64,000 nt of DNA from Candidatus Omnitrophota bacterium (GTDB taxonomy: Bacteria; Omnitrophota; Gorgyraeia; Duberdicusellales; 4484-171): NCBI GenBank assembly GCA_041652815.1, contig JBAZGN010000001.1, forward strand, positions 317,855-381,854, written 5' to 3'. The notes beneath the pieces are model-generated. The model had not been told where the DNA came from and ran no database searches. It saw only the letters and a program-made list of their open reading frames with translations. The position numbers were made by a program, and so were the translations under genes. Positions 10,738 through 61,285 of this stretch are shown here, one piece after another (the stretch's first letter is position 1; every line of letters begins with the position of its first letter).

Positions 10738-11367
10738 GTGTTCCACATGGCAGAAGACTTAAAAAGACTTATTGAGAAAATTCAAAAAGAAGGCATTGAG
10801 GCTGCAAAAGAAAAGGCTTCTAAAATCGAAGCCCAGGCCCATGCCCAGGCCCAGGCGATAATTTCAAAGGCTAAAGAAGAGGCTAACCGGTTGCTTGAAC
10901 AGGCAAAAGCCGAAATTATACGCCAGAAAGAAGCCACTACAAATTTACTTCGCCAGTCCGCGAGAGATACAGTTATCGGCCTACGCCAGGAATTGCTTCA
11001 GAAGCTATCAAATGTCATAAAAAAAGAAACTCACGCCGCCCTAAAAGCCAAGGACTTATCTGAAATCCTGATTAAATTGATGAAGGAATGCTCTAAAGAA
11101 ACCGGTTCAAACGTGGAAATAACATTAAGCAAGGAAGATGCAGATAAGCTTACCCAGGCATTTATTTCGGGTTTCAAGGAAGAGCTTAAAAAGGGAATTA
11201 CTTTAAAAACTTCCGACGAAATATCAGGAGGTTTTCTTATCAGCTACGATGCCGGTAAATCCCAATTCGATTTTACTGATTCTGCTTTGGCCCAATATCT
11301 CGCCCAGTATGTGCAGGGCAGGCTTGATGATATTTTGCAGCCCGCATCCACGAAAACCAAGCCTTAA
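10738..11367 (+). CDS. ntpE: V/A-type ATPase subunit E
   Basis: Coiled-coil, Ala/Lys/Glu-rich N-terminus, first gene of the E-X-A-B-D-I-K operon. Confidence 0.65.
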   Translation: MFHMAEDLKRLIEKIQKEGIEAAKEKASKIEAQAHAQAQAIISKAKEEANRLLEQAKAEIIRQKEATTNLLRQSARDTVIGLRQELLQKLSNVIKKETHAALKAKDLSEILIKLMKECSKETGSNVEITLSKEDADKLTQAFISGFKEELKKGITLKTSDEISGGFLISYDAGKSQFDFTDSALAQYLAQYVQGRLDDILQPASTKTKP

Positions 11368-11959: not shown

Positions 11960-13714
11960 ATGGATAGAAAAGGAATTATTACAAAAATTGTCGCAAACAT
12001 GGTAAGCGTGCGGGTGGATGGCTCTGTCACCCAGAACGAAGTTGCCTATATTTTGCATGGGCCAGAACGCCTCAAAGCCGAGGTTATCCGCATCCGCGGT
12101 AAAATCGCTGAAACCCAGGTGTATGAATCAACAACAGCCCTTAAGGTTGGAGATGAAGTAGAGCTTACCGGAGAGTTGCTTTCGGTTGAATTAGGCCCTG
12201 GCCTCTTGGGGCAAATTTTCGATGGCCTGCAAAATCCGCTTCCTCAGATAGCAAAAGAATGCGGATTTTTTCTTAAGCGCGGCGTATATAAAAAGGCACT
12301 TGTTGATAGTACAACCTGGGAATTTAATCCTCTGATTAAAAAGGGCGATACTCGCCGGGCGGGAGATAAAATTGGATATGTCAACGAACACATTTTTAAG
12401 CACTACATCATGGTGCCCTTTGGTTTAAAGGGAATACTTAAAATAAATTCCATAGCCGCCAAAGGCACCTATGATCTTACACAGCCTATAGCTACGATTG
12501 AAGAGCCAAACGGAAAAACACACGAAGTATTTTTAAAACAAATCTGGCCGGTAAAAATTCCTATTGAAGCCTACGCTGAAAAAATAAAGCCAATTGAACC
12601 ATTGGTTACTAAAATACGTATCATAGATTCGCTTTTTCCGGTTAGCCTTGGGGGAACTTATTGCGTTCCCGGGCCTTTCGGCGCAGGCAAAACTGTCTTA
12701 CAGCAATTAATCAGCCGGCACGCCGAAGTTGATGTAGTAGTTATTGCTGCCTGCGGCGAACGCGCCGGCGAAGTTGTCGAAACCTTAAAAACTTTTCCGC
12801 AGATAAAAGACCCGCGCACAAATTTACCTTTATCCGAGCGCACAGTTATTATTTGTAATACCAGCTCAATGCCTGTTGCGGCACGTGAATCAAGCGTCTA
12901 TACCGCTGTAACTATTGCCGAATACTACAGGCTTATGGGTTTAAACGTAATGCTTCTGGCTGATTCAACAAGCCGCTGGGCGCAGGCGATGAGAGAAATG
13001 TCCGGCCGGCTAGAAGAGATTCCGGGAGAGGAAGCTTTTCCTGCTTACCTTGAATCTCGGATTGCCTCATTTTATGAGCGAGCAGGTTTAGTTCGTTTAA
13101 ACGACGGCACATTCGGTTCGGTTACAATTGGTGGGACGGTAAGCCCTGCCGGAGGAAATTTCGAAGAACCGGTAACGCAGGCGACATTAAAAGTTGTCGG
13201 AACATTCCATGGCCTGTCACGCGACAGGTCAAACGCAAGAAGGTATCCGGCAATTGACCCGCTAATAAGCTGGAGTAAATATAAAGGTATTATTGAAGAT
13301 AGTTTAATTGCGCGCGGGCATGCAGTGCTTGATAAAAGCCATGAAGTTGAGCAGATGATGAAAGTTATTGGTGAGGAAGGAACCTCTCTGCCGGATTTTG
13401 TAGAATATCTTAAGGGTGAATTTTTCGATTTTGTATATTTGCAGCAGAATGCATTTGACGCGGTGGATGAATCGACAGAAGCGCCCCGCCAAAAATATAT
13501 TTTTGGTTTTATTTATTCAAATATTTTTGAAAAAGATTTTAACTTTATTGATAAAGACGCAGCCAGGCATTTTTTCCATACCCTTCGGCAAGCTTTCAGA
13601 GGATGGAACTCAAGCGAGTTTGAGAGCGAAGAGTTTAGAAGAATAGAAAGAGAAATAGTTAGTGCAATTAGTATAAAAATAACCAAGCTCCAAGATACAA
13701 TAACCAAACAATGA
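11960..13714 (+). CDS. ntpA: V/A-type ATPase catalytic subunit A
   Basis: P-loop GPFGAGKTVL, 584 aa. The last codons and stop codon lie inside repeat E1. Confidence 0.95.
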   Translation: MDRKGIITKIVANMVSVRVDGSVTQNEVAYILHGPERLKAEVIRIRGKIAETQVYESTTALKVGDEVELTGELLSVELGPGLLGQIFDGLQNPLPQIAKECGFFLKRGVYKKALVDSTTWEFNPLIKKGDTRRAGDKIGYVNEHIFKHYIMVPFGLKGILKINSIAAKGTYDLTQPIATIEEPNGKTHEVFLKQIWPVKIPIEAYAEKIKPIEPLVTKIRIIDSLFPVSLGGTYCVPGPFGAGKTVLQQLISRHAEVDVVVIAACGERAGEVVETLKTFPQIKDPRTNLPLSERTVIICNTSSMPVAARESSVYTAVTIAEYYRLMGLNVMLLADSTSRWAQAMREMSGRLEEIPGEEAFPAYLESRIASFYERAGLVRLNDGTFGSVTIGGTVSPAGGNFEEPVTQATLKVVGTFHGLSRDRSNARRYPAIDPLISWSKYKGIIEDSLIARGHAVLDKSHEVEQMMKVIGEEGTSLPDFVEYLKGEFFDFVYLQQNAFDAVDESTEAPRQKYIFGFIYSNIFEKDFNFIDKDAARHFFHTLRQAFRGWNSSEFESEEFRRIEREIVSAISIKITKLQDTITKQ

Positions 13715-13794
13715 CCAATAACCAAATCTCAATAACCAAACAAAAACCAATATCTCCGTTTGGTTATTGGATATTGGAATTTGTTTGGAGCTTG
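13677..13794. repeat. Compound palindrome, AACCAAACAA family (E1), overlapping the ntpA 3' end
   Basis: aaataaccaagctccaagatacaataaccaaacaatgaccaataaccaaat...ccgtttggttattgg. It is >90% identical over ~60 nt to E2 at 33439. Confidence 0.85.
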
Positions 13795-13795
13795 C

Positions 13796-13856
13796 CCGTC
13801 AATTTGCTGTAGGCAAATTGACGAGGTCTCGTCAAATTCAAAGAATTTGACGGATA
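13796..13856. repeat. Second hairpin built from CGTCAATTTG / CAAATTGACG words
   Basis: cgtcaatttgctgtaggcaaattgacgaggtctcgtcaaattcaaagaatttgacgg. Confidence 0.7.
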
Positions 13857-13905
13857 TCTTGATTATTGATTATTTAATCACATTTCAACTTGTATAGAGG
13901 CAAAG

Positions 13906-15213: not shown

Positions 15214-15318
15214 GTTACGAAGGTTACGAAAGTTACGCAGGTTACGAAGGTTACAACAAACCTTCGATGTTTTAAAAGTAACATTGTAACTTCTCGTAAC
15301 ACCCGTAACCTTCGTAAC
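15212..15318. repeat. Compound palindrome, GGTTACGAAGG family (A1)
   Basis: taggttacgaaggttacgaaagttacgcaggttacgaaggttacaa ... cttctcgtaacacccgtaaccttcgtaac. Copies are at 30582, 39134 and 42995. Confidence 0.9.
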
Positions 15319-17809: not shown

Positions 17810-17819
17810 TTTTATGACA

Positions 17820-17948
17820 AACTCTAAACCCGAAATCCTAAACTCTAAACAAACTCGAAACTACAAATTACAAATTCCAAACGTTTTGAGTTTAGAGTTT
17901 CGAGTTTATAGTTTATTTAGAGTTTCGAGTTTAGTGTTTAGGGTTTAT
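17820..17948. repeat. Compound palindrome, AACTCTAAAC family (C1)
   Basis: aactctaaacccgaaatcctaaactctaaacaaactcgaaac ... gtttagagtttcgagtttagtgtttagggtt. The copy is at 23709. Confidence 0.9.
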
Positions 17949-17964
17949 CTTAAAGGGAGGAGTT

Positions 17965-18588: not shown

Positions 18589-18677
18589 AGCTTTCAGCCA
18601 TCAGCTATCAGCAATCAGCCCCTCCCAAGGGGCGCCCTTGAAGGGTGGCTGAAGACTGACGACTGATAGCTGAAAGC
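18589..18677. repeat. Compound palindrome, CAGCTGAAAGCTG family (B2), with a GC-rich core cccaaggggcgcccttgaaggg
   Basis: agctttcagccatcagctatcagcaatcagcc...ggctgaagactgacgactgatagctgaaagc. Confidence 0.9.
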
Positions 18678-18685
18678 GTAAAAAA

Positions 18686-20398
18686 ATGGATTTACAAACA
18701 CTCAGGCATTCTTGTTCGCACATTATGGCCAGCGCGGTTAAGAAAATTTATCCGCAGGCAAAATTAGGTATTGGCCCGGCTATTGAAGGAGGCTTTTACT
18801 ATGATTTTGAAATCCCCGGCGGCATAAAGGAAGAAGATTTAGGTAGAATTGAACAATTAATGCGCGAAGAAATCAACAAAAAATTACCTTTCGTTCATGA
18901 AGATTGGGAAAGCGAAAAGGCGATTGATTTTTTTAAATCTAACGGCGAAACTTTTAAGGTTGAGTTAATAAAAGATTTGGCGCAACCCAAAGTTTCTATA
19001 TATAAGCACGGTGATTTTGTAGATTTGTGCAAGGGCCCGCATATTGCCTCAACCAAAGAGGCAAAATATTTCAAAATACTTTCAACTTCAGGCGCTTACT
19101 GGAAAGGCATAGACTCAAATCCGCAGCTCGTGCGTATTTACGGTACGGTATTTTTTACCAAAGAAGAATTAGAAGCTCATCTAAAGCTTCTGGAAGAGGC
19201 TAAGCTAAGAGATCACAGGACGCTCGGACGTGAGCTCGGGCTTTTTGAATTATTTTACAATGAAGCCGGAGCAGGCCTTGTGTTTTATTTGCCGGACGGC
19301 GCGCGCTTAAAAAGAATAATCGAAGACTGGGAAATCAAAGAGCATTACCGGCGCGGATATAAAATGGTGCAAACTCCGCACATAATGGATAAGAAATTAT
19401 GGCAGAAAAGCGGCCACCTTGATTACTATCAGGATTATATGTATCCGGTAACCAAGGAAAATCAGGAATTTATTTTAAAGCCGATGAATTGCCCGGGGCA
19501 TATACTGATTTATAAAGCAAGCCTTCGCAGCTGGAGAGAATTGCCTTTAAGAATGTTTGAACTGGGCACGGTTTATCGTTATGAAAAAAGCGGAGTGTTA
19601 CACGGTTTACTTCGGGTAAGAGGCTTTACCCAGGATGACGCGCATATATTTTGCAGAAAGGAAGATTTATACTCCGAAATAGAAGGAGTTTTGGATTTTG
19701 TAAAAGAAGCAATGAATAAATTCGGTTTTATTGATTTCACCGCGGAATTAAGCACGCGGCCGGAAAAATTTATCGGAGAAAAAGAAAATTGGGATGCCGC
19801 CGAAGGTATCTTGGAAGAAGTGCTTAAGAAAAAGAAGTTTAATTACAAAATAAATCCGGGTGACGGAGCTTTTTACGGCCCCAAGATAGACATAAAACTT
19901 AAAGATGCTCTAAATAGAGAGTGGCAATGCGCAACTGTCCAGCTGGATTATGCTATTCCTGAAAGATTCGATTTAACCTATCGTGCTCCTGATGGGAAAG
20001 ATACACGCGTGGTTATGATTCACCGCGTAATTTTAGGAAGCCTGGAGAGGTTTATCGCAACATTGATTGAGCACTACGCAGGTAAATTTCCTCTCTGGCT
20101 TTCTCCGGTTCAGGTGAGTGTTTTAAATATTACGGAAGATGTTGAGGCTTACGCTAAAGAAATAAAAGATATTTTAGAAAAAGAAAATATTCGCGTGGAA
20201 GTAGATTTACGTAATGAAACTTTGCAGAGAAAAATAAGAGAAAAAGAAATGCGTAAGGTGCCATATATGGTTATAGTCGGGAAGAAAGAACGCGATAGCA
20301 AACAGATTTCGGTACGGGCGAGAGGTATGCAGAATTTAGGCAATATGGATATGGAAAGCTTTTTGAATATCTTGAAAAAAGAAATAAAGGGAGCCTAG
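18686..20398 (+). CDS. thrS: Threonyl-tRNA synthetase (short form lacking the N-terminal TGS domain)
   Basis: 570 aa. It starts at the N2 editing-domain motif RHSCSHIMA. Class II motifs and the anticodon-binding domain are present. Confidence 0.9.
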   Translation: MDLQTLRHSCSHIMASAVKKIYPQAKLGIGPAIEGGFYYDFEIPGGIKEEDLGRIEQLMREEINKKLPFVHEDWESEKAIDFFKSNGETFKVELIKDLAQPKVSIYKHGDFVDLCKGPHIASTKEAKYFKILSTSGAYWKGIDSNPQLVRIYGTVFFTKEELEAHLKLLEEAKLRDHRTLGRELGLFELFYNEAGAGLVFYLPDGARLKRIIEDWEIKEHYRRGYKMVQTPHIMDKKLWQKSGHLDYYQDYMYPVTKENQEFILKPMNCPGHILIYKASLRSWRELPLRMFELGTVYRYEKSGVLHGLLRVRGFTQDDAHIFCRKEDLYSEIEGVLDFVKEAMNKFGFIDFTAELSTRPEKFIGEKENWDAAEGILEEVLKKKKFNYKINPGDGAFYGPKIDIKLKDALNREWQCATVQLDYAIPERFDLTYRAPDGKDTRVVMIHRVILGSLERFIATLIEHYAGKFPLWLSPVQVSVLNITEDVEAYAKEIKDILEKENIRVEVDLRNETLQRKIREKEMRKVPYMVIVGKKERDSKQISVRARGMQNLGNMDMESFLNILKKEIKGA

Positions 20399-21368: not shown

Positions 21369-21650
21369 AATGAAGCCAACATTTTTCCAAGCTGACTGTC
21401 GCAAGACAGGCGCGCAGGAAAAATGTTAGGCTGAATTTCACCCCGCCCTTTTGGCTGGGCGGATTTAAGGCTTCGCGGTATAGTGTTTAATTAGAGGATA
21501 GGTTCTGTTTCAGATTAAGTAATTATAGTTCCGCCAAAAGGGCGGGGTTTAATTCGCAGGCGGCATTGGCGCTGTTGTGCCAATGTCTATGACTTACGCT
21601 CGCAGATTCGCTCGCGTAAGTCATCTGCTCATTAAAGGAGGATAAAAGAA

Positions 21651-21995: not shown

Positions 21996-22002
21996 TAAAA
22001 GA

Positions 22003-22078
22003 AACCAGAAACCAGAGTACAGAAACCAGAAAAAATGTTTTTTATTATCTGGTTTCTGGTTACTGGTTTCTGTAAACT
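22003..22078. repeat. Compound palindrome, GAAACCAGA family (single copy in window)
   Basis: agaaaccagaaaccagagtacagaaaccagaaaaaatg...ctggtttctggttactggtttctg. Confidence 0.85.
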
Positions 22079-23708: not shown

Positions 23709-23880
23709 AAACTCTAAACCCGAAATCCTAAACTCCCTGCCTGCCGGCCCTCGGCACAGCCTAAGGCGAGCAGGCAGGAAGACAAACTCGAAACTATAAA
23801 TCACAAACCCTAAACGCTTCGAGTTTGGAGTTTCGTGTTTGTGATTTGTTTAGAGTTTCGAGTTCAGTGTTTAGAGTTAT
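23709..23880. repeat. Compound palindrome, AACTCTAAAC family (C2), with a nested GC-rich hairpin (cctgcctgccggccctcggcacagcctaaggcgagcaggcaggaag)
   Basis: The first 24 nt are identical to C1. The nested core is absent from C1. Confidence 0.9.
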
Positions 23881-25395: not shown

Positions 25396-25926
25396 ATGTC
25401 ACAGGTCACAGGTCACAGGTCACAGGTCAAAATTTTTATAAAGTTTATATTAATTATCATTTCAACCTGTTACCTGTTACCGGTTACGTGCTATTCTCAG
25501 ATTTCAAGTTCTGACTTAATCAACAATGCCAAGCAATATGACGGACAAGAGATAGTTTATACCGGAGAAGTTATCGGTGACGTGATGATAAGAGGAAAAT
25601 TTGCCTGGATAAATGTAAATGATACAAAAAACGCAATAGGAATATGGCTCTCCAAAGATTTCGCTAAAGAAATTCTCTACACCGGCAGTTATAGGGCCAA
25701 AGGTGACATTGTTGAGGTAAAAGGAAAGTTTAATCGTGCCTGCACTGAGCACGGAGGAGATTTAGACATACACGCATCTACTTTACAGGTTATCCAAAAA
25801 GGCGCAAATGTGGATGAAGTAATTTCCCCGCGTAAAATTAAGGTAGCAATTACATTTCTTATAATTTGTTTGACATTAACGGTTATTTATTTTATAAGAT
25901 TAGGCTATGGTTTTAAACACAGATGA
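25396..25926 (+). CDS. Hypothetical exported/membrane-anchored protein; start codon unresolved because the annotated 5' end runs through repeat L3
   Basis: Hydrophobic N-terminal region encoded by the repeat itself, a C-terminal TM helix, no recognisable domain. Confidence 0.4.
   Translation: MSQVTGHRSQVKIFIKFILIIISTCYLLPVTCYSQISSSDLINNAKQYDGQEIVYTGEVIGDVMIRGKFAWINVNDTKNAIGIWLSKDFAKEILYTGSYRAKGDIVEVKGKFNRACTEHGGDLDIHASTLQVIQKGANVDEVISPRKIKVAITFLIICLTLTVIYFIRLGYGFKHR
25397..25495. repeat. Compound imperfect palindrome, GTCACAG x4 facing CCTGTTACC repeats
   Basis: gtcacaggtcacaggtcacaggtca ... cctgttacctgttaccggttacgtg. Confidence 0.8.
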
Positions 25927-25960
25927 TCGCAGATTGAAAAGCAGATGATTACAGATTTGG
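25918..25960. repeat. CACAGAT-family left arm (outer arm of the nested element around F1)
   Basis: cacagatgatcgcagattgaaaagcagatgattacagattt. The partner arm ctatctgtgatttcttatctgtgccaatctgtg is at 26107-26142. Confidence 0.8.
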
Positions 25961-25974
25961 CATATTGTCATACG

Positions 25975-26105
25975 GCTATGGGTTGCGCCACTCGTTACGT
26001 CTATCGTTAATCGGTTGCGTTTTAAATGACGATAGACGATTAACGTAACCGAGACGAGCTCGCCCGCCTCCGGCGGACAGGCAACCGCAACCGATTTACG
26101 CAACC
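25975..26105. repeat. Compound palindrome, GCGGTTGCG / CGATAGACG family (F1), nested inside CACAGAT arms
   Basis: ggttgcgccactcgttacgtctatcgttaatcggttgcg...cgatagacgattaacgtaaccgagacgagc...caaccgcaaccg. Confidence 0.85.
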
Positions 26106-26106
26106 G

Positions 26107-26142
26107 CTATCTGTGATTTCTTATCTGTGCCAATCTGTGTGG
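26107..26142. repeat. CACAGAT-family right arm (ATCTGTG x3)
   Basis: ctatctgtgatttcttatctgtgccaatctgtg. Confidence 0.8.
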
Positions 26143-26157: not shown

Positions 26158-27189
26158 ATGGAAACAGAAGTTAAAAAACTGGAAGAAGAATTCGGGAAGG
26201 ATTTATCAGGGGTTTGTGATGCTTTAGGTATTGAGGCGCTACGAGTAAAATACCTCGGAAGAAAAGCTGAAATTAACCGGCTTTTTTCAATGGTTCCCTC
26301 CTTAAGCAAAGAAGCAAAAGGCATCTGGGGTAAGAATTTAAACATTCTTAAAAATAAAATATCACTTGCCATTGAAGAAAAATTAAAAAGTTTAGGCACG
26401 AAAGAGGAAAAAATCGATTTAACTTATCCCGCAGCCAGGCTGGAAAAAGGAAGCCGCCATATTTTAAGTGCGGTAAGCGAAGAAATTTGTTCGGTTTTTG
26501 AAAAGCTTGGGTTTACCGTAGTTGAAGGAACCGAAATAGAAGATGAATGGCATAACTTTAGCGCTTTAAATATACCGCTGGATCATCCTTCGCGCGATGC
26601 TTTCGATACTTTTTATCTGGATATACCGCAGCCGCAAGAAAAACACAGAGGAAAGTTTTTGCTGCGCAGCCACACCTCGCCGTCTCAAGCACGCGTGATG
26701 AGCGTATCCAAACCTCCCCTTGCGGTTATTTCTCCGGGAAGAGTTTACAGGCCGGATGCAGTTGATGCTTCGCATTCTTTTATGTTCCATCAGGTTGAAG
26801 GTTTTGCCATAGATAAAAACATAAATTTTGCGCACCTTAAAGGCGTGCTTCTTAATTTTGTAAAACTCTTTTTTTCTCCCGATGTTAATTTGCGTTTCCG
26901 GCCGCACTTTTTTCCTTTTACTGAACCTTCGGCTGAAGTTGATATTTCATGTTTTATCTGTAAGGGCAAAAAAGATAAATGCAGCTTATGTAAAGGAAAA
27001 GGCTGGCTCGAAATACTTGGCTGCGGAATGATTCATCCCAAAGTTCTTGAAAATTGCGGTATAGATTCGAAAAAATACAAAGGCTTTGCGTTTGGTATGG
27101 GGGTGGAACGGCCGGCAATGCTTAAATACGGCATAAATGATATTCGGCTGTTTTATGAGAATGATGTTAAGTTCCTTGAACAATTTTAA
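26158..27189 (+). CDS. pheS: Phenylalanyl-tRNA synthetase alpha subunit
   Basis: Class II motifs (FRPHFFPFTEPS, GFAFGMGVERPAML). The start METEVKKLEE at 26158 is preferred over the ORF-track 26113. Confidence 0.9.
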   Translation: METEVKKLEEEFGKDLSGVCDALGIEALRVKYLGRKAEINRLFSMVPSLSKEAKGIWGKNLNILKNKISLAIEEKLKSLGTKEEKIDLTYPAARLEKGSRHILSAVSEEICSVFEKLGFTVVEGTEIEDEWHNFSALNIPLDHPSRDAFDTFYLDIPQPQEKHRGKFLLRSHTSPSQARVMSVSKPPLAVISPGRVYRPDAVDASHSFMFHQVEGFAIDKNINFAHLKGVLLNFVKLFFSPDVNLRFRPHFFPFTEPSAEVDISCFICKGKKDKCSLCKGKGWLEILGCGMIHPKVLENCGIDSKKYKGFAFGMGVERPAMLKYGINDIRLFYENDVKFLEQF

Positions 27190-27194
27190 TGGAG

Positions 27195-27292
27195 AATACG
27201 AATTAATACTAGATGCTTGATGCTCGATGCCAGATGTTGTGAAAAATAAAATAACGAGCATCTAGTATCGGGCATCTAGCATCCCTCGCGGA
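27195..27292. repeat. Compound palindrome, GCATCTAGATGC family
   Basis: actagatgcttgatgctcgatgccagatg...gagcatctagtatcgggcatctagcatc. Confidence 0.85.
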
Positions 27293-29286: not shown

Positions 29287-29289
29287 ACG

Positions 29290-29325
29290 CAGATTAGCGC
29301 AGATTTGAACGGATTAGCACAGATA
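29290..29325. repeat. CACAGAT-family left arm (outer arm around F2)
   Basis: cagattagcgcagatttgaacggattagcacagat. Confidence 0.8.
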
Positions 29326-29331
29326 AAGGGT

Positions 29332-29460
29332 GCGTCTATCGGTTGCGGTTACGCAGCTCGTCTCGTCATACGTTAATCGGTTGTGTTAAAGAAAGTATTT
29401 AAAATAAAGACGATAGACGTAAAACGCAACCGACACGAGCATCGCAACCGTATGACGAAT
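29332..29460. repeat. Compound palindrome, GCGGTTGCG family (F2), nested inside CACAGAT arms
   Basis: gtctatcggttgcggttacgcagctcgtctcgtcatacgttaatcggttg...cgatagacgtaaaacgcaaccgacacgagcatcgcaaccg. Confidence 0.85.
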
Positions 29461-29510
29461 ATCATCTGTGATCATCTGCTTTCCAATCCGTGATCATCTG
29501 TGTAAAAAAG
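29461..29510. repeat. CACAGAT-family right arm (ATCTGTG x3)
   Basis: atcatctgtgatcatctgctttccaatccgtgatcatctgtg. Confidence 0.85.
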
Positions 29511-29518: not shown

Positions 29519-29731
29519 ATGAAATACGAAAGGAAAGATAAATACACAAAGCCCGGCACTCCGGCAGAAATTTTAGAACTGGCACTCCAGAAAGAAGAGT
29601 CTTCCTATAGATTTTATGACGAGATGCTTAAAATTACCGAAAGCCCAGCATTAAAGCAGCTTTTAGAAGAGTTGAGAGACGCAGAATTAGGCCATATTGA
29701 GAAAATAAAAAATAAAATGGCCCGCGCTTAA
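29519..29731 (+). CDS. Small helical protein (70 aa), possibly a ferritin/rubrerythrin-like fragment
   Basis: SD AAAAAGGAGG precedes ATG 29519. The ORF-track extension from 29468 lies in the repeat. Motif ELGHIEKI. Confidence 0.4.
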   Translation: MKYERKDKYTKPGTPAEILELALQKEESSYRFYDEMLKITESPALKQLLEELRDAELGHIEKIKNKMARA

Positions 29732-31677: not shown

Positions 31678-31771
31678 ATAGAAGCGGATTCCCGCGGAGC
31701 TAAACGCGGATGTACGCACGGTAATCGGTTTGCATTTATCCGCGTTGATATCCGCGGCCATCCGCTTCTAT
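31678..31771. repeat. Compound palindrome, CCGCGGATA family (K1), with perfect 12-bp terminal inverted repeats ATAGAAGCGGAT / ATCCGCTTCTAT
   Basis: Seen directly. The paralog K2 at 37790-37883 has identical termini. Confidence 0.9.
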
Positions 31772-31892: not shown

Positions 31893-33416
31893 ATGAATGT
31901 AAAAGAATTACTTATAAACCAAGCTTCGTTATTTCCTCAAAAAAGCGCTTTTATCTTTGAAGGCAAAGAAACAACCTTTTTGCAACTCAAAGATGCCGCA
32001 TTTAAGATTGCCAATTATTTTACAAGGCAAGGCATAAAAAAGCCAGATAAAATTGCTATTTTTACCCCAAACACTCCGGAAGCTATTTGTGCGCAGATGG
32101 CGGCATATTCTATAGGTGCAACCTTGATACCTTTTGATTACATGCTCACAGAAAATGAGATTATTCATTTCTTAAACCATAGCGAAGCAAAAGTATTAAT
32201 CATGCAGCCGAGAAAAGACATAAACGTATTAAACATCCGGGAAAACTGTTATTCTGTAAAATATATAATAACCTGTAAAGAGCGCCTTGCGGATTGCGAT
32301 TTCCTTGATGATCTTTTGGCAGAGGAAAGTAGTGAAGCTCCGATTCCGCAATCTTTTGATAAAGACCTCGCGGCAATATTTTATACCTCAGGCTCAACTG
32401 GCCACCCTAAGGGCGTAATGCTTAGCTATAAACAGTTTGATAATCCGGTTGATACAATAAACCATTTTTTAGGGGTTTCGGAAAACGATGTTTATTGTAC
32501 CGGCGGCATACCTTTTTCCCATGTGGGCGGGCTTAATTACCTGCTTTTAATGATTCGTTTTGCATCAACCGTTATTGTAATGGGAAGGTTTCATCCGATG
32601 GAATTTTTAAAAAATATAGAAAGATATAAAGTCACGATATTTTGCATAGTGCCTTCGATGTATGTTGCGATTTTATCTCTAAAAGAATACGAGAGGTTTA
32701 ACCTTTCGTCTTTAAGGTATGCAGTTGTTTTTGGTGCGCCTTCTTCGCCTCTTTTGCTTAAGAAATTTCACAGGTCATGCCCTAAAGCAATTGTTTTAAA
32801 CGGTTGGGGTATGACTGAAACCGCCGCTCCGAATACTTTTTCGCCCCCGGACGAGCATAAGATATCCAGCATAGGGAAATTCGGATTTCGTATGCAGGCA
32901 AAGATAATCGATGAGGAAGGAAAATCTTTGTTATATGGAGAACAAGGCGAATTATTAGTCAGCGGAGAAGGTGTTACCGGCGGCTATTACAGAGAGCCGA
33001 CCTTAAGCTCAGATGCTTTTTGGGGAGAAGGGTGGCTGCGTACCGGCGATATTGCTTATTTTGGAAAAGACGGGCTGATATATCTTGCCGGGAGAAAAAA
33101 GGACATGATAAAAGTTGCCGGTGAGATAGTTTTTTCCTCGGAAGTTGAAGAAAAAATACAGCTCTATCCAAAGGTTAAAGAAGTTGCTGTCATAGGTGTT
33201 GCCGATGAATTAAGAGGAGAAGTGCCGAAAGCTTTTATTGTTGCAAAAGAATCTGAAGTGATAGATGCTCAGGAGCTAAGGGATTTTTTAAAAGAGCATC
33301 TGGCTCATTTTAAAATTCCGCATTATTTTGAATTTATAAAAGAACTTCCAAAAAATAGAGTGGGAAAAATCGACAAACAGGCACTTAAGAAAACACAGAT
33401 TAGCACAGATTTGTAA
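31893..33416 (+). CDS. AMP-dependent synthetase/ligase (acyl-CoA or aryl-CoA ligase)
   Basis: YTSGSTGHPKGV AMP-binding motif, C-terminal KIDKQALKK. SD AAGGAGG before ATG 31893. Confidence 0.85.
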   Translation: MNVKELLINQASLFPQKSAFIFEGKETTFLQLKDAAFKIANYFTRQGIKKPDKIAIFTPNTPEAICAQMAAYSIGATLIPFDYMLTENEIIHFLNHSEAKVLIMQPRKDINVLNIRENCYSVKYIITCKERLADCDFLDDLLAEESSEAPIPQSFDKDLAAIFYTSGSTGHPKGVMLSYKQFDNPVDTINHFLGVSENDVYCTGGIPFSHVGGLNYLLLMIRFASTVIVMGRFHPMEFLKNIERYKVTIFCIVPSMYVAILSLKEYERFNLSSLRYAVVFGAPSSPLLLKKFHRSCPKAIVLNGWGMTETAAPNTFSPPDEHKISSIGKFGFRMQAKIIDEEGKSLLYGEQGELLVSGEGVTGGYYREPTLSSDAFWGEGWLRTGDIAYFGKDGLIYLAGRKKDMIKVAGEIVFSSEVEEKIQLYPKVKEVAVIGVADELRGEVPKAFIVAKESEVIDAQELRDFLKEHLAHFKIPHYFEFIKELPKNRVGKIDKQALKKTQISTDL

Positions 33417-33436
33417 GCGAATGAGCACAGATTGCA
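33395..33436. repeat. CACAGAT-family left arm (outer arm around E2)
   Basis: cacagattagcacagatttgtaagcgaatgagcacagattgc. Confidence 0.8.
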
Positions 33437-33438
33437 AT

Positions 33439-33588
33439 AAATAACCAAGTTCCAAGATACAATAACCAAACAATGGCCAATAACCAAATTTCAATAACCA
33501 AACAAAAAAATAACAAATCCGTTTGGTTATTGGGTATTGAATATTGTAATTTGTTTGGAACTTGTATCTTGGTTATTGGTTATTTCTA
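33439..33588. repeat. Compound palindrome, AACCAAACAA family (E2), nested inside CACAGAT arms
   Basis: aaataaccaagttccaagatacaataaccaaacaatggccaataaccaaat...ccgtttggttattgggtattgaatattgtaatttgtttggaacttgtatcttggttattggttatt. Confidence 0.9.
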
Positions 33589-33589
33589 A

Positions 33590-33640
33590 AATATCTGTGG
33601 TTATCTGTGATTTTTTATCTGCGATCATCTGTGTATAAAA
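33590..33640. repeat. CACAGAT-family right arm
   Basis: atatctgtggttatctgtgattttttatctgcgatcatctgtg. Confidence 0.8.
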
Positions 33641-34389: not shown

Positions 34390-34470
34390 TATCACGTCGC
34401 ACGTATCACGTATCACGTATCACGTCTTTTTAAAACCTGTTACGTGCTACCTGATACGTGGTACGTTAAA
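34390..34470. repeat. Compound imperfect palindrome, GTATCACG x4 facing CGTGCTACCTGATACGTGGTACG
   Basis: Seen directly. It overlaps the false 5' extension of the next ORF. Confidence 0.75.
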
Positions 34471-34746: not shown

Positions 34747-34751
34747 TGGCA

Positions 34752-34842
34752 CAGATTAGCACAGATTTTAAAGCGGATGATCACAGATAAAAACCATCTG
34801 CGATCATCTGTGATCTCTTTCTGTGATCATCTGTGTAATAAA
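34752..34842. repeat. Stand-alone CACAGAT-family palindrome (3 CACAGAT words / 3 ATCTGTG words, 7-nt loop)
   Basis: gcacagattagcacagattttaaagcggatgatcacagataaaaaccatctgcgatcatctgtgatctctttctgtgatcatctgtg. Confidence 0.9.
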
Positions 34843-36469: not shown

Positions 36470-36530
36470 TCGACAGTCGATAGTCCATAGATTAAAACTG
36501 TGGACTGTAGATTATGGACTGTGGACTAAA
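36458..36530. repeat. Compound palindrome, GGACTATGGACT family (H1)
   Basis: agtctatagtcgacagtcgatagtccatagattaaaactgtggactgtagattatggactgtggact. The paralog is at 60299. Confidence 0.85.
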
Positions 36531-36545: not shown

Positions 36546-37793
36546 ATGAGACGAGTAGTCATAACCGGCATTGGCGTAATCTGTGCAGCTGGCGAGGATA
36601 AAAACACTTTTTACGATAATATTGTCGCCGGTAAACCCTTTATTGAAAGAGTAGAGAATTTTGATGTAAGTTTATTTGTGTCAAAAATAGCTTCACAGGA
36701 TTTAGGCTTTGACCCGCTCAAATTTGGCATAAAAGACCACCAGCGTATGGATAGATATGTCCAATTTGGTATTGCCGCGGCAAAACAGGCAGTTGAAGAC
36801 AGCCACATTGATTTTAATAAAATAAACAGAAAAAAATGCGGTGTAATTTTAGCAAACGCAATTTGCGGCACGCGTTTTATGGAGGAGGAATTCCTTCTTG
36901 TAACTGACTGGGGAAAGAGGCCAATCGATCCGCGTAAAGGCCGGCCTTATCTTTATGATGCGGCAATGTTTAATACGCCAAGCGCAGAAATCGGAGCAAT
37001 TTATCATACGCAAGGGCTTAATTGCACGGTTTCTACCGGTTGCACTGCTGCTACAGATTCTTTAGGATTTTCTTTTGAACTTATCCGCGAAGGCAGGCAG
37101 GATATAATTATTGCCGGTGGTACTGAAGCGCCGGTTTGCCCGATTACTTTTGGAGCTTTTGACGTGGTAAATGTTTTGGCAAAAAATAACGATGAACCGC
37201 ATAAAGCCAGCCGGCCTTTCGATAATAAAAGAAACGGTTTTGTAATTTCTGAAGGCGCGGGCGTTGTAGTGCTTGAAGAATTAGAGCACGCAAAAAAGCG
37301 CGGCGCGCATATTTACGGAGAATTGGTTGGTTACGGTACAAGCTGTAATGCCTTTCATATGACGGATTTACCTGAGGACGGCGAAGCGATGGAGCGCTGC
37401 ATCAAAGATGCGATGAAAGACGCAGGAGTTAAAAATGAAGATATAGACTATATAAATACGCATGGCTCATCAACCAGGCAAAATGACGTTTTTGAGACAA
37501 ATGCTTACAAGGCAGTGTTCGGTGATTATGCTTACAAAATTCCGATAAGCTCTATAAAATCAATGATTGGCCATCCTTTGGCGGCAGCCAATGCTGTAGA
37601 GAGTGTTTTATGCGCGATGATTTTTGAAAAAGGATATTTGCCCCCCACGATAAATCAGGAAGAGCCAGACCCAAAATGCGATTTGGATTATATTCCAAAC
37701 GTGAAAAGACAATATATGCCTAATTACATATTAAAAACAAGCAGCGGATTTTCCGGAATACATTCGTCTATTATATTTAAGAAATATAAATAG
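36546..37793 (+). CDS. Beta-ketoacyl synthase, KS-alpha (FabF-like, catalytically complete)
   Basis: Cys in STGCTAATDS, His in INTHGSSTRQND, His in SMIGHPLAAANAVE. The stop codon TAG lies inside the terminus of repeat K2. Confidence 0.85.
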   Translation: MRRVVITGIGVICAAGEDKNTFYDNIVAGKPFIERVENFDVSLFVSKIASQDLGFDPLKFGIKDHQRMDRYVQFGIAAAKQAVEDSHIDFNKINRKKCGVILANAICGTRFMEEEFLLVTDWGKRPIDPRKGRPYLYDAAMFNTPSAEIGAIYHTQGLNCTVSTGCTAATDSLGFSFELIREGRQDIIIAGGTEAPVCPITFGAFDVVNVLAKNNDEPHKASRPFDNKRNGFVISEGAGVVVLEELEHAKKRGAHIYGELVGYGTSCNAFHMTDLPEDGEAMERCIKDAMKDAGVKNEDIDYINTHGSSTRQNDVFETNAYKAVFGDYAYKIPISSIKSMIGHPLAAANAVESVLCAMIFEKGYLPPTINQEEPDPKCDLDYIPNVKRQYMPNYILKTSSGFSGIHSSIIFKKYK

Positions 37794-37883
37794 AAGCGGA
37801 TATCCGCGGATAGCTACGCGGATAAACGCCAGCGAATTTCTGTGCGTCTATCCGCGTTTAAATCCGCGGCAATCCGCTTCTAT
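37790..37883. repeat. Compound palindrome, CCGCGGATA family (K2), termini ATAGAAGCGGAT / ATCCGCTTCTAT
   Basis: atagaagcggatatccgcggatagctacgcggataaacgcc...gtctatccgcgtttaaatccgcggcaatccgcttctat. Confidence 0.9.
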
Positions 37884-40367: not shown

Positions 40368-40424
40368 CGCAGATTTACGCAGATAATTTACCTAAGATCA
40401 CCTGCGTTAGGAAAAGGAGGAAGA

Positions 40425-41724: not shown

Positions 41725-41725
41725 A

Positions 41726-41850
41726 ACGATTACAGTTGCGTCAAGCGGTTGCGGTTGCGCCGCTCGTCACGGTTGCGTCTAACGTAAGACGTAACCGCAT
41801 GACGAAACGAGTCGCGTAACCGATAGACGCAAAACGTAACCCCATAGATA
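41726..41850. repeat. Compound palindrome, GCGGTTGCG family (F3)
   Basis: gttgcgtcaagcggttgcggttgcgccgctcgtcacggttgcgtctaacgtaagacgtaaccgcatgacgaaacgagtcgcgtaaccgatagacgcaaaacgtaacc. Confidence 0.85.
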
Positions 41851-57989: not shown

Positions 57990-58082
57990 AGCACAGACTA
58001 TCACAGATTTTTAAGCGGATGATCACAGATAAAATCATCTGCGATTATCTGTGATTTCTCATCTGTGACCATCTGTGTCTTG
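57990..58082. repeat. Stand-alone CACAGAT-family palindrome
   Basis: gcacagactatcacagatttttaagcggatgatcacagataaaatcatctgcgattatctgtgatttctcatctgtgaccatctgtg. Confidence 0.9.
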
Positions 58083-60421: not shown

Positions 60422-61213
60422 ATGAAGATTTTATTCCTTGGCGATATAGTGGGAAAGCCGGCCAGAATCTATCTGAAAGAGCTTCTCCCGTCTTTAAGAA
60501 AAAGCTTAAGCCTTGATTTTATAGTTGCAAACGGAGAAAACGCTGCCGGCGGTTCAAGTATTACTCCGGATACAGCATCGGATCTTTTTAACAGCTCAAT
60601 TGATGTAATTACCACAGGCGACCACATATTCAAAAAGCAGGAATCAAAGCAGGTGCTTGAGACAATGGATGTTGTGCGTCCGCTTAATTATGGCGAACTC
60701 GCAGCAGGCAGGGGCTATCTCATAAAAGAAGTAAGCAATAAAAAAATAGGCGTCGTTAATCTCCTGGGAAGGGTATTTATGCCGCCGATGGACTGTCCTT
60801 TTAGAGCAGTCAGAAATATAATCGAAGACTTAAGAAGTAAAGTTAAGGTAATTATTGTTGATATGCATGCTGAGGCAACGAGCGAAAAGCTTGCAATGGG
60901 GTATTTTCTTTCAGGCAAAGTGACAGCTGTAGTTGGCACGCACACGCACATACCAACAGCGGATGAAAGAATAATCGACGATTTTACTGCCTACATTACC
61001 GACGTTGGAATGACAGGAAGCTTTGATTCGGTTTTAGGCAGGGAAAAACATCAGATAATTGAGCGTTTTGTTACAAATATGCCGGTTCGTTTTAATTTAG
61101 CACAAGGCGATGTGCGTATGCAGGGCGTAATAATTGAAACAGATGATACAACCGGCAAGGCGCTTTCTATAAAAAGGGTGGAATATAAACAAGACACAGA
61201 TGATCACAGATGA
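60422..61213 (+). CDS. ymdB: YmdB-like metallophosphoesterase (TIGR00282 family)
   Basis: MKILFLGDIVGKPAR, GENAAGG. Conserved position downstream of rny, as in Firmicutes. Confidence 0.8.
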   Translation: MKILFLGDIVGKPARIYLKELLPSLRKSLSLDFIVANGENAAGGSSITPDTASDLFNSSIDVITTGDHIFKKQESKQVLETMDVVRPLNYGELAAGRGYLIKEVSNKKIGVVNLLGRVFMPPMDCPFRAVRNIIEDLRSKVKVIIVDMHAEATSEKLAMGYFLSGKVTAVVGTHTHIPTADERIIDDFTAYITDVGMTGSFDSVLGREKHQIIERFVTNMPVRFNLAQGDVRMQGVIIETDDTTGKALSIKRVEYKQDTDDHR

Positions 61214-61285
61214 GAAGAAAAAACACAGATGATCACAGAAGATTTTATCTGCGATCATCTGTTTTGCATCTGTGCTAATCTGTGT
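61192..61285. repeat. Stand-alone CACAGAT-family palindrome (overlaps the ymdB 3' end)
   Basis: acacagatgatcacagatgagaagaaaaaacacagatgatcacagaagattttatctgcgatcatctgttttgcatctgtgctaatctgtg. Confidence 0.9.

What the first reader, a model, noticed from the sequence alone, without database searches (positions are those of the whole stretch)
25918..26142. Nested elements: CACAGAT-family arms bracket a complete palindrome of a different family (three instances)
At 25918-26142 and 29290-29510 a left array of CACAGAT words and a right array of ATCTGTG words enclose an intact GCGGTTGCG-family palindrome. At 33395-33640 the same arms enclose an AACCAAACAA-family palindrome. Elsewhere the CACAGAT arms occur alone with only a 3-30 nt loop (34752-34842, 57990-58082, 61192-61285). 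This is the pattern expected if one hairpin family inserts into the loop of another, or if CACAGAT arms act as a carrier. Either implies directed insertion or recombination rather than random slippage.
Basis: seen in the sequence. Interest (0 to 1): 0.75.

Follow-up and report, generated by a model that had tools for sequence, protein, structure and literature searches.

The report
Hairpin repeats nested inside hairpin repeats
In this uncultured Omnitrophota bacterium, small DNA hairpin repeats fill the gaps between genes, and three copies of one repeat family carry a complete repeat of another family at their centre, which a close relative with the same hairpin still empty suggests is a later insertion.

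Summary
At 25918-26139, 29288-29502 and 33394-33633, complementary arms built from CACAGAT / ATCTGTG words enclose a complete palindrome of another dispersed family. Three further copies (34750-34835, 57992-58077, 61195-61284) have the same four-word arms around a 6-7 nt loop.

The key evidence is comparative. A related species (L187/L188, PheS 91% identical) has the same CACAGAT hairpin at the orthologous site upstream of pheS, with an empty 6-nt loop. Four other relatives lack the element there entirely. Both inner families also occur alone, in the window and in other Omnitrophota genomes. Two more nested cases exist in other species.

The best reading is nested non-autonomous mobile palindromes: one element entered the unpaired centre of another. 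The "carrier arms" alternative is disfavoured. Whether the loop is actively targeted or merely tolerated is unresolved, and no mobilising enzyme was found.

Context: nearly every gene gap in the window holds such a word-array hairpin, from at least 12 families. These turn over quickly between species. The CACAGAT word array also occurs in Verrucomicrobiota and in many metagenome contigs.

I rate this a new variant of a known kind (REP/MITE/foldback-like), interest about 0.6.

The parts
25918..25956 (+). Site A, left outer arm: four CACAGAT-type words (CACAGAT gat CGCAGAT tgaaaa GCAGAT gat TACAGAT). The first word supplies the TGA stop of the upstream 176-aa ORF.
   Evidence: 34/41 identical to the left arm of the orthologous empty hairpin in L187.
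25957..26108 (.). Site A insert: 152-nt imperfect palindrome of the GGTTGCG / CGTCTATCG family. It carries a further ~20-nt GC-rich mini-hairpin (about 26059-26080) in its right arm that the other family members lack.
   Evidence: Absent from the orthologous hairpin of L187/L188.
26109..26139 (+). Site A, right outer arm: three ATCTGTG words. The innermost word present in L187 is missing or degenerate here.
25907..25910 (+). ATGG, repeated at 26158-26161 (the pheS start codon plus G). The pair flanks the ~250-nt inserted block. Relatives with an empty site have a single ATGG.
   Evidence: A single observation; a possible 4-bp target duplication.
29288..29324 (+). Site C, left outer arm (CGCAGAT tag CGCAGAT ttga ACGGAT tag CACAGAT). 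It starts 2 nt after the pheT stop codon.
29325..29463 (.). Site C insert: 139-nt palindrome of the GGTTGCG family. It is colinear with the 25957 and 41725 copies at roughly 57-80% identity.
29464..29502 (+). Site C, right outer arm. It ends 16 nt before the ATG of the 70-aa gene and 6 nt before its GGAGG ribosome-binding site.
33394..33432 (+). Site D, left outer arm. It encodes the last residues and the TAA stop of the AMP-binding enzyme gene.
33433..33592 (.). Site D insert: 160-nt palindrome of the AATAACCAA family, with arms of 7-nt-period words.
   Evidence: 95.7% identical to window 13677-13746; 89% to L054 4651-4797; z = -8.8
33593..33633 (+). Site D, right outer arm (four words).
34750..34835 (+). 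Empty CACAGAT element (4+4 words, 7-nt loop AAAAACC). It is conserved at the orthologous site in L001.
   Evidence: arms z = -4.2
57992..58077 (+). Empty CACAGAT element, 6-nt loop, 88.5% identical to the 34750 copy.
61195..61284 (-). Empty CACAGAT element, in the opposite orientation to the 34750 copy.
   Evidence: alignment score 52 reversed against 33 direct
41725..41850 (.). Free-standing GGTTGCG-family palindrome with no CACAGAT arms.
13677..13790 (.). Free-standing AATAACCAA-family palindrome with no CACAGAT arms. Its left arm overlaps the 3' end of the V-ATPase A subunit gene.

Best explanation
The three loci are nested, non-coding mobile palindromes.

**The elements.** The outer unit is a discrete foldback element of about 86 nt. 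It has two arms, each of four 7-nt CACAGAT-type words arranged as word-3 nt-word, a 6-13 nt spacer, then word-3 nt-word. The arms flank a 6-7 nt A-rich loop. This element had settled in very short gene gaps. A copy of a second dispersed palindromic family (GGTTGCG type, about 140-150 nt; AATAACCAA type, about 160 nt) later entered it at or next to the apical loop. The outer arms still pair, and the insert folds as its own hairpin.

**What is shown:**
- Both layers are independent, multi-copy families.
- An orthologous site exists in three states: no element, empty outer hairpin, and outer hairpin plus insert.
- The insert sits centrally in all five nested cases.
- Smaller GC-rich hairpins sit in the unpaired spacer between words 2 and 3.
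- Families in a given gap are replaced quickly between species.

**What is inferred:**
- Insertion happens on hairpin or cruciform DNA, at unpaired tips and internal loops. The likely routes are a structure-directed single-strand mechanism (an HUH/RAYT-like enzyme, or template switching at stalled hairpins) or repair of a break at the hairpin tip.
- Nested composites are intermediates in a succession: the newcomer persists while the outer arms decay. This would explain why the same gap holds different families in different species.

The enzyme is unknown. The confidence given (0.75) is for nesting by insertion of one mobile palindrome into the centre of another. I put active loop targeting, as opposed to selection, at about 0.4.
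For: **Architecture.** The six CACAGAT copies share one colinear architecture. In A, C and D the foreign palindrome lies directly after word 4 of the left arm.

**Three states at site A.**
- L187/L188 (PheS 91% identical; pheS nucleotide identity 83.8%) carry the same hairpin, in the same flank (TGGAAAAAAAGKTTTCCAATGG), with a 6-nt loop.
- The window has 152 nt more in the middle.
- L001, L030, L189 and L190 have no element there, and the two genes overlap.

**The empty form is the propagating form.** L187 site A and L189 site E are non-orthologous copies in two species. They are 92% identical (81/88), while pheS of those two species is 82.9% identical.

**Inner families occur alone.**
- AATAACCAA stands alone at window 13677 and in L026 (twice), L037, L033 and L056.
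- GGTTGCG stands alone at window 41725.

**Independent nested cases.** L054 4613-4820 has CACAGAT arms around an AATAACCAA palindrome. L011 9745-9990 has them around an AAATTCCAAAT palindrome.

**A second empty/filled pair for a smaller insert.** L026 1530-1850 carries a ~50-nt hairpin that its ortholog L037 lacks.

**GC mini-hairpins.** These sit in the spacer between words 2 and 3 in L001, L005 and L020.

**Turnover.**
- The gap orthologous to 34750 holds a CACAGAT element in the window, L001 and L189.
- The same gap holds an ACGT family in L002, ATCACAAAT in L004, AAATTCCAAAT in L005 and CACGAAT in L187.

**DNA-level symmetry.** G.U and A.C mismatches in stems are 72 against 75. The element occurs in both orientations. 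Both points fit a DNA-level palindrome rather than a strand-specific RNA.
Against: - No transposase, RAYT or other candidate enzyme was found. This covers the window (Pfam), the regions next to 120 metagenome copies, and 1.9 Mb of fetched loci searched with a recalled IS200 TnpA sequence (low sensitivity).
- Only one orthologous empty/filled pair exists for a family-level insert, and its polarity is not proven. Precise loss of the inner palindrome in L187 is possible.
- At site A the innermost right word is missing, so the insert may lie just inside the right arm rather than in the loop proper.
- Evidence for a target duplication is a single 4-bp ATGG, which selection for the pheS start codon could also explain.
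- The CACAGAT word is conserved across phyla. That is unusual for the ends of a selfish element and hints at a host protein or function not captured by this model.
- A central position could reflect selection rather than targeting.
Confidence: 0.75

Rival explanations
1. Boundary-motif model. The CACAGAT and ATCTGTG arrays are not one element. They are two separate functional word arrays, binding sites for a conserved PVC protein, placed at the end of one gene and the start of the next. Anything else in the gap is then necessarily 'between' them.
For: - Arrays always abut gene ends: the left arm overlaps or follows the stop codon, and the right arm ends within roughly 20 nt of the next start.
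- Many metagenome copies are one-armed direct arrays of three words with no partner within 600 nt, for example L165.
- The word is conserved from Omnitrophota to Verrucomicrobiota.
- No transposase is associated with the arrays.
Against: - In Omnitrophota the two arms plus loop form a conserved colinear unit of ~86 nt, found at non-orthologous sites at 88-92% identity. It has an intrinsic polarity and occurs in both orientations.
- The whole unit is present or absent as a block at orthologous sites.
- Other families sit side by side in gaps such as 13715-13905, so enclosure is not automatic.
Confidence: 0.15
2. Carrier model. The CACAGAT arms are the ends of a foldback-type transposon that captures cargo and moves arms plus cargo as one unit.
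For: - The same combination (CACAGAT arms around an AATAACCAA palindrome) occurs at non-orthologous sites in two species, with a similar 6-nt right junction.
- Metagenome copies bracket varied cargo, including GC-rich hairpins and, in L172, a complete PD-(D/E)XK gene.
Against: - No two composites are close copies of each other. The two GGTTGCG inserts are only ~57-80% identical.
- The empty form is the one found as near-identical copies.
- The inner families mostly occur without arms: six free AATAACCAA copies against two nested.
- Site A exists with arms but without cargo in a close relative.
Confidence: 0.1
3. Functional RNA model. The composite is a selected multi-stem RNA, such as an mRNA stabiliser, processing site or terminator inside operons. 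Nesting would then reflect the structural design of one transcript.
For: - All copies lie between co-directional genes, many inside operons such as the V-ATPase and pheST operons.
- In most species sampled the gap orthologous to 34750 holds some hairpin.
- The composite folds as a nested stem.
Against: - No Rfam family matches.
- There is no excess of G.U over A.C in stems on the sense strand (72 against 75).
- One copy is inverted relative to transcription.
- The hairpins have no T-tails, and terminator-like sites are not enriched.
- Sequence families in the same gap are replaced between species at 91% protein identity, so no particular structure is conserved.
- A generic 'any hairpin will do' function is not excluded, and it could coexist with mobility.
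Confidence: 0.15
4. In-situ growth. The arms and inserts arose locally, by slippage of short words and fold-back copying, without any movement between loci.
For: The arms are tandem arrays of 7-10-nt-period words. That pattern is what slippage produces, and word number varies between copies.
Against: - Inserts are colinear with copies elsewhere in the genome and in other species at 87-96% identity. Local slippage cannot produce that.
- Orthologous sites differ by whole elements with sharp boundaries.
Confidence: 0.05

Closest known systems
REP / BIME elements, in particular REPs found 'inserted within' other palindromes (Di Nocera et al. 2013, PMC3733652, section 7)
   Same: - Extragenic, multi-copy, imperfect palindromes, with several families per genome.
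- Mosaic clusters occur.
- There is published precedent for one palindromic repeat lying at the centre of another: A. variabilis GTAG-15, T. roseum GTAG-23 and H. neapolitanus CGTC-1.
- REPs are reported in PVC bacteria.
   Different: - REPs are 20-40 nt with 6-13 bp stems and a GTAG or CGTC tag. The elements here are 60-160 nt, with arms built from 3-4 or more repeated words separated by unpaired spacers, and no such tag was seen.
- No RAYT was found.
- In two of the three published cases the 'target' palindrome was never seen empty. Here both layers are free-standing families, and an empty orthologous allele exists.
IS1397 / ISKpn1 and other IS elements that insert into REP loops (Clement et al. 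1999, PMC94167; Tobes and Pareja 2006, PMC1525189; cited; details from my own knowledge)
   Same: A mobile element enters the central loop of an extragenic palindrome. This shows that hairpin loops can be specific insertion targets.
   Different: Those inserts are full insertion sequences that encode a transposase. Here the inserts are short non-coding palindromes.
Drosophila Foldback (FB) elements and foldback-type MITEs (own knowledge; cf. PMC3169594, listed)
   Same: Long inverted arms made of tandem short subrepeats, with a central loop that may be nearly absent or may hold unrelated sequence.
   Different: FB elements are eukaryotic, kilobase-scale and linked to a known transposase lineage. 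The elements here are bacterial, under 250 nt, and have no known enzyme. This is an analogy of architecture, not membership.
Cyanobacterial STRR heptamer repeats and small dispersed repeats (Mazel 1990; Elhai et al. 2008, Genome Res 18:1484; from memory, as the paper could not be opened)
   Same: - Intergenic arrays of 7-nt words, with several families per genome.
- Very small elements found inserted inside other repeats.
- Mobility inferred from comparison of related genomes, with no transposase identified.
   Different: - A different phylum and different words.
- The arrays here are organised as long hairpins, and the nested units are 140-160-nt palindromes.
- The CACAGAT family has a 10-nt period rather than 7.
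ERIC/IRU and Correia-type bacterial MITEs; organellar mobile palindromes (double-hairpin elements, 'palindromic microsatellites'; PMC7218506)
   Same: - Transcribed intergenic palindromes of 100-150 nt.
- ERIC has longer variants caused by internal insertions at fixed positions (own knowledge).
- Organellar palindromes are optional between sister species, which argues for mobility.
   Different: These systems have one or a few families per genome, and their arms are not arrays of short words. None has been described for Omnitrophota or the PVC group.

Membership tests
REP / REPIN (RAYT-mobilised) | Short (about 20-40 nt) imperfect palindrome with a single stem | tested here: not met
   The CACAGAT unit is ~86 nt, with four helices per arm pair separated by 3-nt and 6-13-nt unpaired spacers. 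The inserts are 139-160 nt.
REP / REPIN (RAYT-mobilised) | Conserved GTAG or CGTC tetranucleotide at one end | tested here: inconclusive
   There is no GTAG at the element ends in the window. Non-Omnitrophota copies often begin TTAG-CCAC or end GTGG-CTAA. CGTC occurs inside GGTTGCG-family words. None of these is demonstrably a tag.
REP / REPIN (RAYT-mobilised) | Extragenic, many copies per genome | tested here: met
   Six to seven copies in 64 kb, all in gene gaps. Copies are present in many Omnitrophota loci.
REP / REPIN (RAYT-mobilised) | Cognate Y1 HUH transposase (RAYT) gene flanked by the repeats | not testable with these tools
   None was found in the window or in the fetched loci. The rest of the genome could not be scanned.
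Bacterial MITE | Terminal inverted repeats, 50-500 bp, no coding capacity | tested here: met
   There are no ORFs within the elements other than read-through from the upstream gene.
Bacterial MITE | Target-site duplication of fixed length | tested here: inconclusive
   One 4-bp ATGG duplication at site A when compared with the empty sites in L001, L030, L189 and L190. None is evident at sites C and D.
Bacterial MITE | Related autonomous IS with the same ends | tested here: not met
   No recurrent gene family lies next to the arrays in 120 loci. The one gene bracketed by arms is a PD-(D/E)XK nuclease-family gene in L172.
Foldback-type element (architecture only) | Inverted arms made of tandem short subrepeats; a loop that is absent or holds unrelated DNA | tested here: met
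   Membership of the eukaryotic FB family is not claimed.
STRR-type heptamer arrays | Tandem 7-nt repeat units in intergenic DNA | tested here: not met
   The CACAGAT family has a ~10-nt period (a 7-nt word plus a 3-nt spacer). Several other families in the window do have a 7-nt period: AATAACC, AAACTCT, TCAGCNN, ACGTATC and GATGCTN.
Intrinsic terminator | GC-rich stem followed by a T-run | tested here: not met
   None of the word-array hairpins is called terminator-like. Terminator-like sites number 22 against 19.7 expected.
Known structured RNA (Rfam) | Match to a curated covariance model | tested here: not met
   Only tRNAs and one group II intron were found, in the window and in 20 loci.

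The most novel reading that the evidence does not exclude
Omnitrophota, and more widely PVC bacteria, may carry an undescribed population of word-array foldback elements. These would colonise gene gaps and each other's unpaired loops by a structure-directed mechanism that needs no element-encoded transposase. In this reading the CACAGAT array, conserved across phyla, is a landing pad or binding array for a conserved host protein. 'Succession by nesting' would then drive the fast replacement of intergenic hairpins between species.
Probability: 0.25. Interest if true: 0.85.

Novelty: new variant of a known kind. Interest (0 to 1): 0.6.

Why it matters
Small palindromic repeats are common in bacteria, but how they spread is known for only a few families. 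This case offers several things at once:
- **A clean three-state series at one site:** no element, empty hairpin, filled hairpin.
- **Many co-resident families:** at least a dozen families share the same build, arms made of short repeated words.
- **Very fast turnover:** families are replaced between species that are still 91% identical in a housekeeping protein.
- **A word conserved across phyla.**

Together these make it possible to ask whether hairpin loops are true insertion targets, and whether nesting is the route by which one family replaces another.

There is also a practical point. These elements supply stop codons and C-terminal residues to genes. They fill operon gaps in genomes of a poorly known, uncultured phylum, so they affect both gene calling and assembly.

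Tried and rejected
- **RNA-level selection.** I counted G.U against A.C mismatches in 29 hairpins between plus-strand genes. The result was 72 against 75, and the fold-energy difference was not significant (Wilcoxon p = 0.48). There is no strand bias, so the structured-RNA reading gained nothing.
- **Rfam.** Scans of the window and 20 loci found no family for any hairpin.
- **Promoter and terminator scan.** No enrichment, and no T-tails on the hairpins.
- **Search for a mobilising enzyme.**
  - Pfam on about 40 window ORFs found only housekeeping genes.
  - All-against-all clustering of ORFs near 120 metagenome copies found no recurrent family.
  - phmmer with a recalled IS200 TnpA sequence against all ORFs of the fetched loci found no hit, at low sensitivity.
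- **One-armed arrays as the two ends of a long transposon (L128).** The genes between them are housekeeping, so I rejected this.
- **Orientation of the two GGTTGCG inserts relative to their arms.** I tried this to separate independent insertion from duplication of a composite. The scores were equal in both orientations, so it was uninformative.
- **Automatic scan for nested inverted repeats in all Omnitrophota loci.** It was swamped by chance 9-mers in coding DNA and missed degenerate arms, so I did not use it.
- **Taxonomy of a high-GC contig.** The first protein chosen (L121) turned out to be a horizontally mobile BREX PglZ and was uninformative. ValRS of L135 then gave Verrucomicrobiota.
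- **Strain-level polymorphism.** L184-L186 are 99.8-100% identical to the window, with no indels in the elements.
- **Literature.**
  - No paper mentions the array sequences.
  - None was found on repeats in Omnitrophota.
  - Elhai 2008 could not be opened.
- **DnaA boxes, LexA boxes, TorR boxes and omega-type heptads.** I considered these from memory as explanations for the words. None fits the consensus well enough to pursue.
Full report
**Observation check**

The window is from an uncultured Candidatus Omnitrophota bacterium. The best PheT match in named genomes is 79%, and the GC content is 39.6%. CACAGAT occurs 33 times against 3.1 expected. Nearly all copies fall in six gene gaps.

In each gap a left array of CACAGAT-type words faces a right array of ATCTGTG-type words. 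Three gaps hold a long insert between the arrays:
- A: 25918-26139, 152 nt.
- C: 29288-29502, 139 nt.
- D: 33394-33633, 160 nt.

Three gaps hold only a 6-7 nt loop: 34750-34835, 57992-58077 and 61195-61284.

The arms are complementary. Joined by a short loop they fold at -28 to -29 kcal/mol in the nested copies and -37 to -40 in the empty ones, against -15 to -21 with a shuffled right arm. In the fold of each full composite, 24-29 of the 37-39 left-arm bases pair with the right arm while the insert folds on itself (DNA parameters). Three independent assemblies from other samples are identical across the composites, so they are not assembly artefacts.

**Anatomy of the outer element**

All copies share one architecture: word, 3 nt, word, a 6-13 nt spacer, word, 3 nt, word, loop, then the mirror image.
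- The 3-nt and longer spacers are mostly unpaired, so the fold is four short helices separated by internal loops.
- The unit is not a perfect palindrome and has a polarity. Copies at 34750, 57992, 29288 and 33394, and the L001 ortholog, align in one orientation. The copy at 61195 aligns in the other.
- The left arm often supplies the stop codon or the last codons of the upstream gene (CACAGATGA at 25918 and 61205; TTGTAA at 33411-33416). The right arm ends within roughly 20 nt of the next start codon.

**The inserts belong to independent families**

The D insert is 95.7% identical over 70 nt to a free-standing palindrome at 13677-13790. It is 89% identical over 148 nt to a copy in L054, a species whose PheT is only 64-70% identical. 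The same family stands alone, without CACAGAT arms, in L026 (twice), L037, L033 and L056.

The A and C inserts and a free-standing copy at 41725-41850 are colinear members of one more diverged family. Mean column identity is 57% and pairwise identity about 80% over the aligned parts. The A insert itself contains an extra ~20-nt GC-rich mini-hairpin that the others lack. That makes site A a three-level nest.

**Comparative evidence**

- **Site A.** L187 and L188 are the same related species from two sources. PheS is 91% identical and pheS nucleotide identity is 83.8%. They carry the same hairpin in the same derived flank, with the loop AAAATC and nothing else. L001, L030, L189 and L190 have no element at all: the two genes overlap at ...TTATGGAAAT.... 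The site therefore exists in three states. In the window the inserted block is flanked by ATGG on both sides, and the empty sites have one ATGG. That may be a 4-bp target duplication, but it is a single case and also restores the pheS start codon.
- **Sites C and D.** These are empty or differently filled in the relatives.
- **The empty hairpin is the form that spreads.** L187 site A and L189 site E are non-orthologous copies in two species, yet they are 92% identical (81/88). pheS of those species is 82.9% identical.
- **Two more nested cases in other species.** L054 has CACAGAT arms around an AATAACCAA palindrome. L011 has them around an AAATTCCAAAT palindrome.
- **A possible later stage.** L001 3659-3862 shows an AAATTCCAAAT-type palindrome followed by a right arm only. 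I read this as an outer element that has lost one arm.
- **A smaller empty/filled pair.** L026 carries a ~50-nt hairpin inside an AATAACCAA palindrome that its ortholog in L037 lacks.
- **GC-rich mini-hairpins.** In L001, L005 and L020 these lie in the spacer between words 2 and 3 of CACAGAT-type hairpins.

**Wider context in the window**

Almost every gap of 60 nt or more folds into a long imperfect hairpin whose arms are arrays of short words, most with a 7-nt period. At least twelve families are present, including GTTACGAAG, CGCGGAT, TCAGCNN, AAACTCT, AATAACC, ATCACAA, ACGTATC, GATGCTN and GGACTAT.
- Copies within a family are colinear at 83-96% identity, and some match copies in other species at 87-91%.
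- The hairpins sit inside operons such as the V-type ATPase and pheST operons.
- The genes in the window are ordinary housekeeping genes, with no transposase.
- Families turn over quickly. The gap orthologous to 34750 holds five different families across seven genomes. By my reading, only three or four of about fourteen orthologous gaps carry the same family in the window and in L187.
- Stems show no excess of G.U over A.C on the sense strand (72 against 75). There is no Rfam match, and there are no T-tails or terminator enrichment.

**Beyond this genome**

Most hits have a third word in register or an inverted partner, which chance matches would not.
- Contig GC ranges from 0.31 to 0.70.
- I found 59 paired hairpins with loops of 3-381 nt. 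By my count, about a quarter have a structured insert.
- About 110 arrays appeared one-armed. Some of these have a degenerate partner.
- One contig with a perfect 3+3 hairpin 20 nt upstream of valS is from Verrucomicrobiota, judged by ValRS hits. The word array is therefore not confined to Omnitrophota.
- No gene family recurs next to the arrays.
- In L172 the arms bracket a complete PD-(D/E)XK nuclease-family gene.

**Most likely mechanism**

I commit to nested non-autonomous mobile palindromes. A CACAGAT foldback element occupied a short gene gap, and a copy of another palindromic family then entered its centre.

The following is shown:
- The two layers are independent families.
- Site A exists in three states.
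- The insert is central in five of five nested cases. Arm word counts are 4/3, 4/4, 4/4, 2/2 and about 4/4. If insertion were uniform along an 86-nt unit, with at most one fifth of positions counting as central, five of five would have a probability of about 3 in 10,000.
- Smaller hairpins lie in an internal unpaired spacer.
- Families turn over quickly between species.

The following is inferred:
- Insertion happens on extruded hairpin or single-stranded DNA at unpaired positions. Possible routes are a structure-directed enzyme (HUH/RAYT-like), template switching at a stalled hairpin, or repair of a break at the tip.
- Nesting followed by decay of the outer arms is how one family replaces another in the same gap.

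I put about 0.75-0.8 on nesting by insertion and about 0.4 on true loop targeting as opposed to selection.

**Rivals**

- **Boundary motif.** The arms would be separate protein-binding arrays at gene ends. One-armed arrays and the conservation across phyla fit this. The conserved 86-nt unit with polarity, present or absent as a block, does not.
- **Carrier.** The arms would mobilise cargo. The recurrence of the CACAGAT plus AATAACCAA combination and the varied cargo fit this. There are, however, no near-identical composites, and the empty form is the one that is copied.
- **Functional RNA.** Position inside operons fits this. Strand symmetry, the inverted copy, the turnover and the lack of terminator features argue against it. 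A generic 'any hairpin' role is not excluded.
- **Local slippage.** This cannot explain inserts that match distant copies.

**Comparison with known systems**

Also relevant are the known insertion of IS1397 and ISKpn1 into REP loops (references; details from my own knowledge).

The architecture (arms of tandem short units, loop empty or filled) resembles eukaryotic Foldback elements. The 7-nt word arrays resemble cyanobacterial STRR, and Elhai's small dispersed repeats are also reported nested. These last comparisons are from memory.

The elements fail the REP definition on size and stem structure, and no tag or RAYT was shown. They meet the MITE definition on form, but not on a partner IS, and only weakly on target duplication. 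I therefore file them as a new variant of a known kind, not as members of a named family.

**Caveats**

- Only 64 kb of this genome and about 1.9 Mb of related loci were available.
- The polarity of the empty/filled pair is not proven.
- The taxonomic breadth rests on one marker protein plus the Omnitrophota loci.
- The turnover count and the count of structured loops are my own readings of tool output, not formal classifications.

Noticed in passing
window, whole; e.g. 4841-4904, 15214-15318, 17819-17950, 18590-18682, 22000-22072, 27212-27285, 31678-31771, 36470-36527, 37790-37883, 46403-46462, 50470-50612: Nearly every intergenic gap of 60 nt or more is a long imperfect hairpin whose arms are tandem arrays of short words, mostly with a 7-nt period. 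At least twelve word families are present, several with 2-5 copies in 64 kb.
   Followed up: partly
L064-L183 (metagenome contigs); L135 333-401: The CACAGAT word array, typically (TTAG)CCACAGAT-nnn-CACAGAT-nnn-CACAGAT and its mirror image, is abundant in metagenome contigs with GC from 0.31 to 0.70. L135 is Verrucomicrobiota by ValRS. A 7-nt word conserved across PVC phyla suggests a conserved recognising protein.
   Followed up: partly
e.g. L165 8784-8810, L082 6355-6381, L128 4572-4598 and 12276-12312, L042 2879-2936: Many copies are direct three-word arrays with no inverted partner within 600 nt. The CC end usually faces the nearest gene boundary, whichever way that gene is oriented. What a one-armed array does is unexplained.
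   Followed up: partly
L172 727-1161: CACAGAT-type arms bracket a complete 127-aa PD-(D/E)XK nuclease-family gene (PF13366, E = 2.6e-39) on the opposite strand.
   Followed up: partly
L113 2188-2388; similar sequence in L097: A group II intron domain V/VI (Rfam RF00029, 41.7 bits) lies about 100 nt from a one-armed CACAGAT array, on the opposite strand. L097 shows similar flanking sequence, and L165 a weaker resemblance.
   Followed up: no
window about 23740-23790, 26059-26080, 43085-43125, 60315-60340, 18620-18650; L001 11020-11050; L005 12013-12043; L056 about 11170-11200: Short GC-rich mini-hairpins (CCGCC...GGCGG, CTGCC...GGCAG and similar) sit inside the arms or at the apex of AT-rich word-array hairpins. 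In CACAGAT-type hosts they always lie in the spacer between words 2 and 3. They look like a further, smaller class of inserted element.
   Followed up: partly
window 25918-25926, 33394-33416, 61195-61213, 13677-13714: Hairpin arms provide the stop codon and up to about seven C-terminal codons of the upstream gene, so element insertion has rewritten protein C-termini.
   Followed up: partly
window 21383-21650 and L187 1670-1886: The rpmI-rplT gap holds a set of hairpins (GAATTTCACCCCGCCC...GGGCGGGGTTTAATTC and others) that, unlike most gaps, is conserved between the two species. A similar hairpin type occurs in L004 at the site orthologous to 33394. It may be a regulatory leader; there is no Rfam match.
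   Followed up: no
window 34394-34466 and 34750-34835 against L002 8089-8196 and 8509-8602: The ACGT-word hairpin and the CACAGAT/CGCAGAT-type hairpin flank the same small gene (DUF2621) in both genomes, but in swapped positions.
   Followed up: no
window 40364-40411: A short degenerate CGCAGAT-type hairpin (two left words, one weak right word) lies between two genes. It may be a decayed copy.
   Followed up: no
window 19561-19783 against L184: Eighteen of the 19 differences between the window and a 99.8% identical assembly cluster in about 220 nt of coding sequence near that contig's end. This could be a recombination patch or an assembly-end effect.
   Followed up: no
L121 3746-6361: A BREX PglZ protein has 80-93% identical relatives named from Competibacteraceae, Gimesia (Planctomycetota) and Xanthobacteraceae. 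This points to a widely transferred defence island. CACAGAT hairpins lie just upstream of it in L121.
   Followed up: no
L004 4464-4642: A CGCGGAT-family hairpin carries an ~85-nt AT-rich, non-palindromic insert at its apex, so filled loops are not unique to the CACAGAT family.
   Followed up: partly
window 29519-29731 against L187 9235-9297: The 70-aa rubrerythrin-like gene downstream of pheT is absent from the 91%-identical relative L187 but present in L002, L189, L190 and L061.
   Followed up: no
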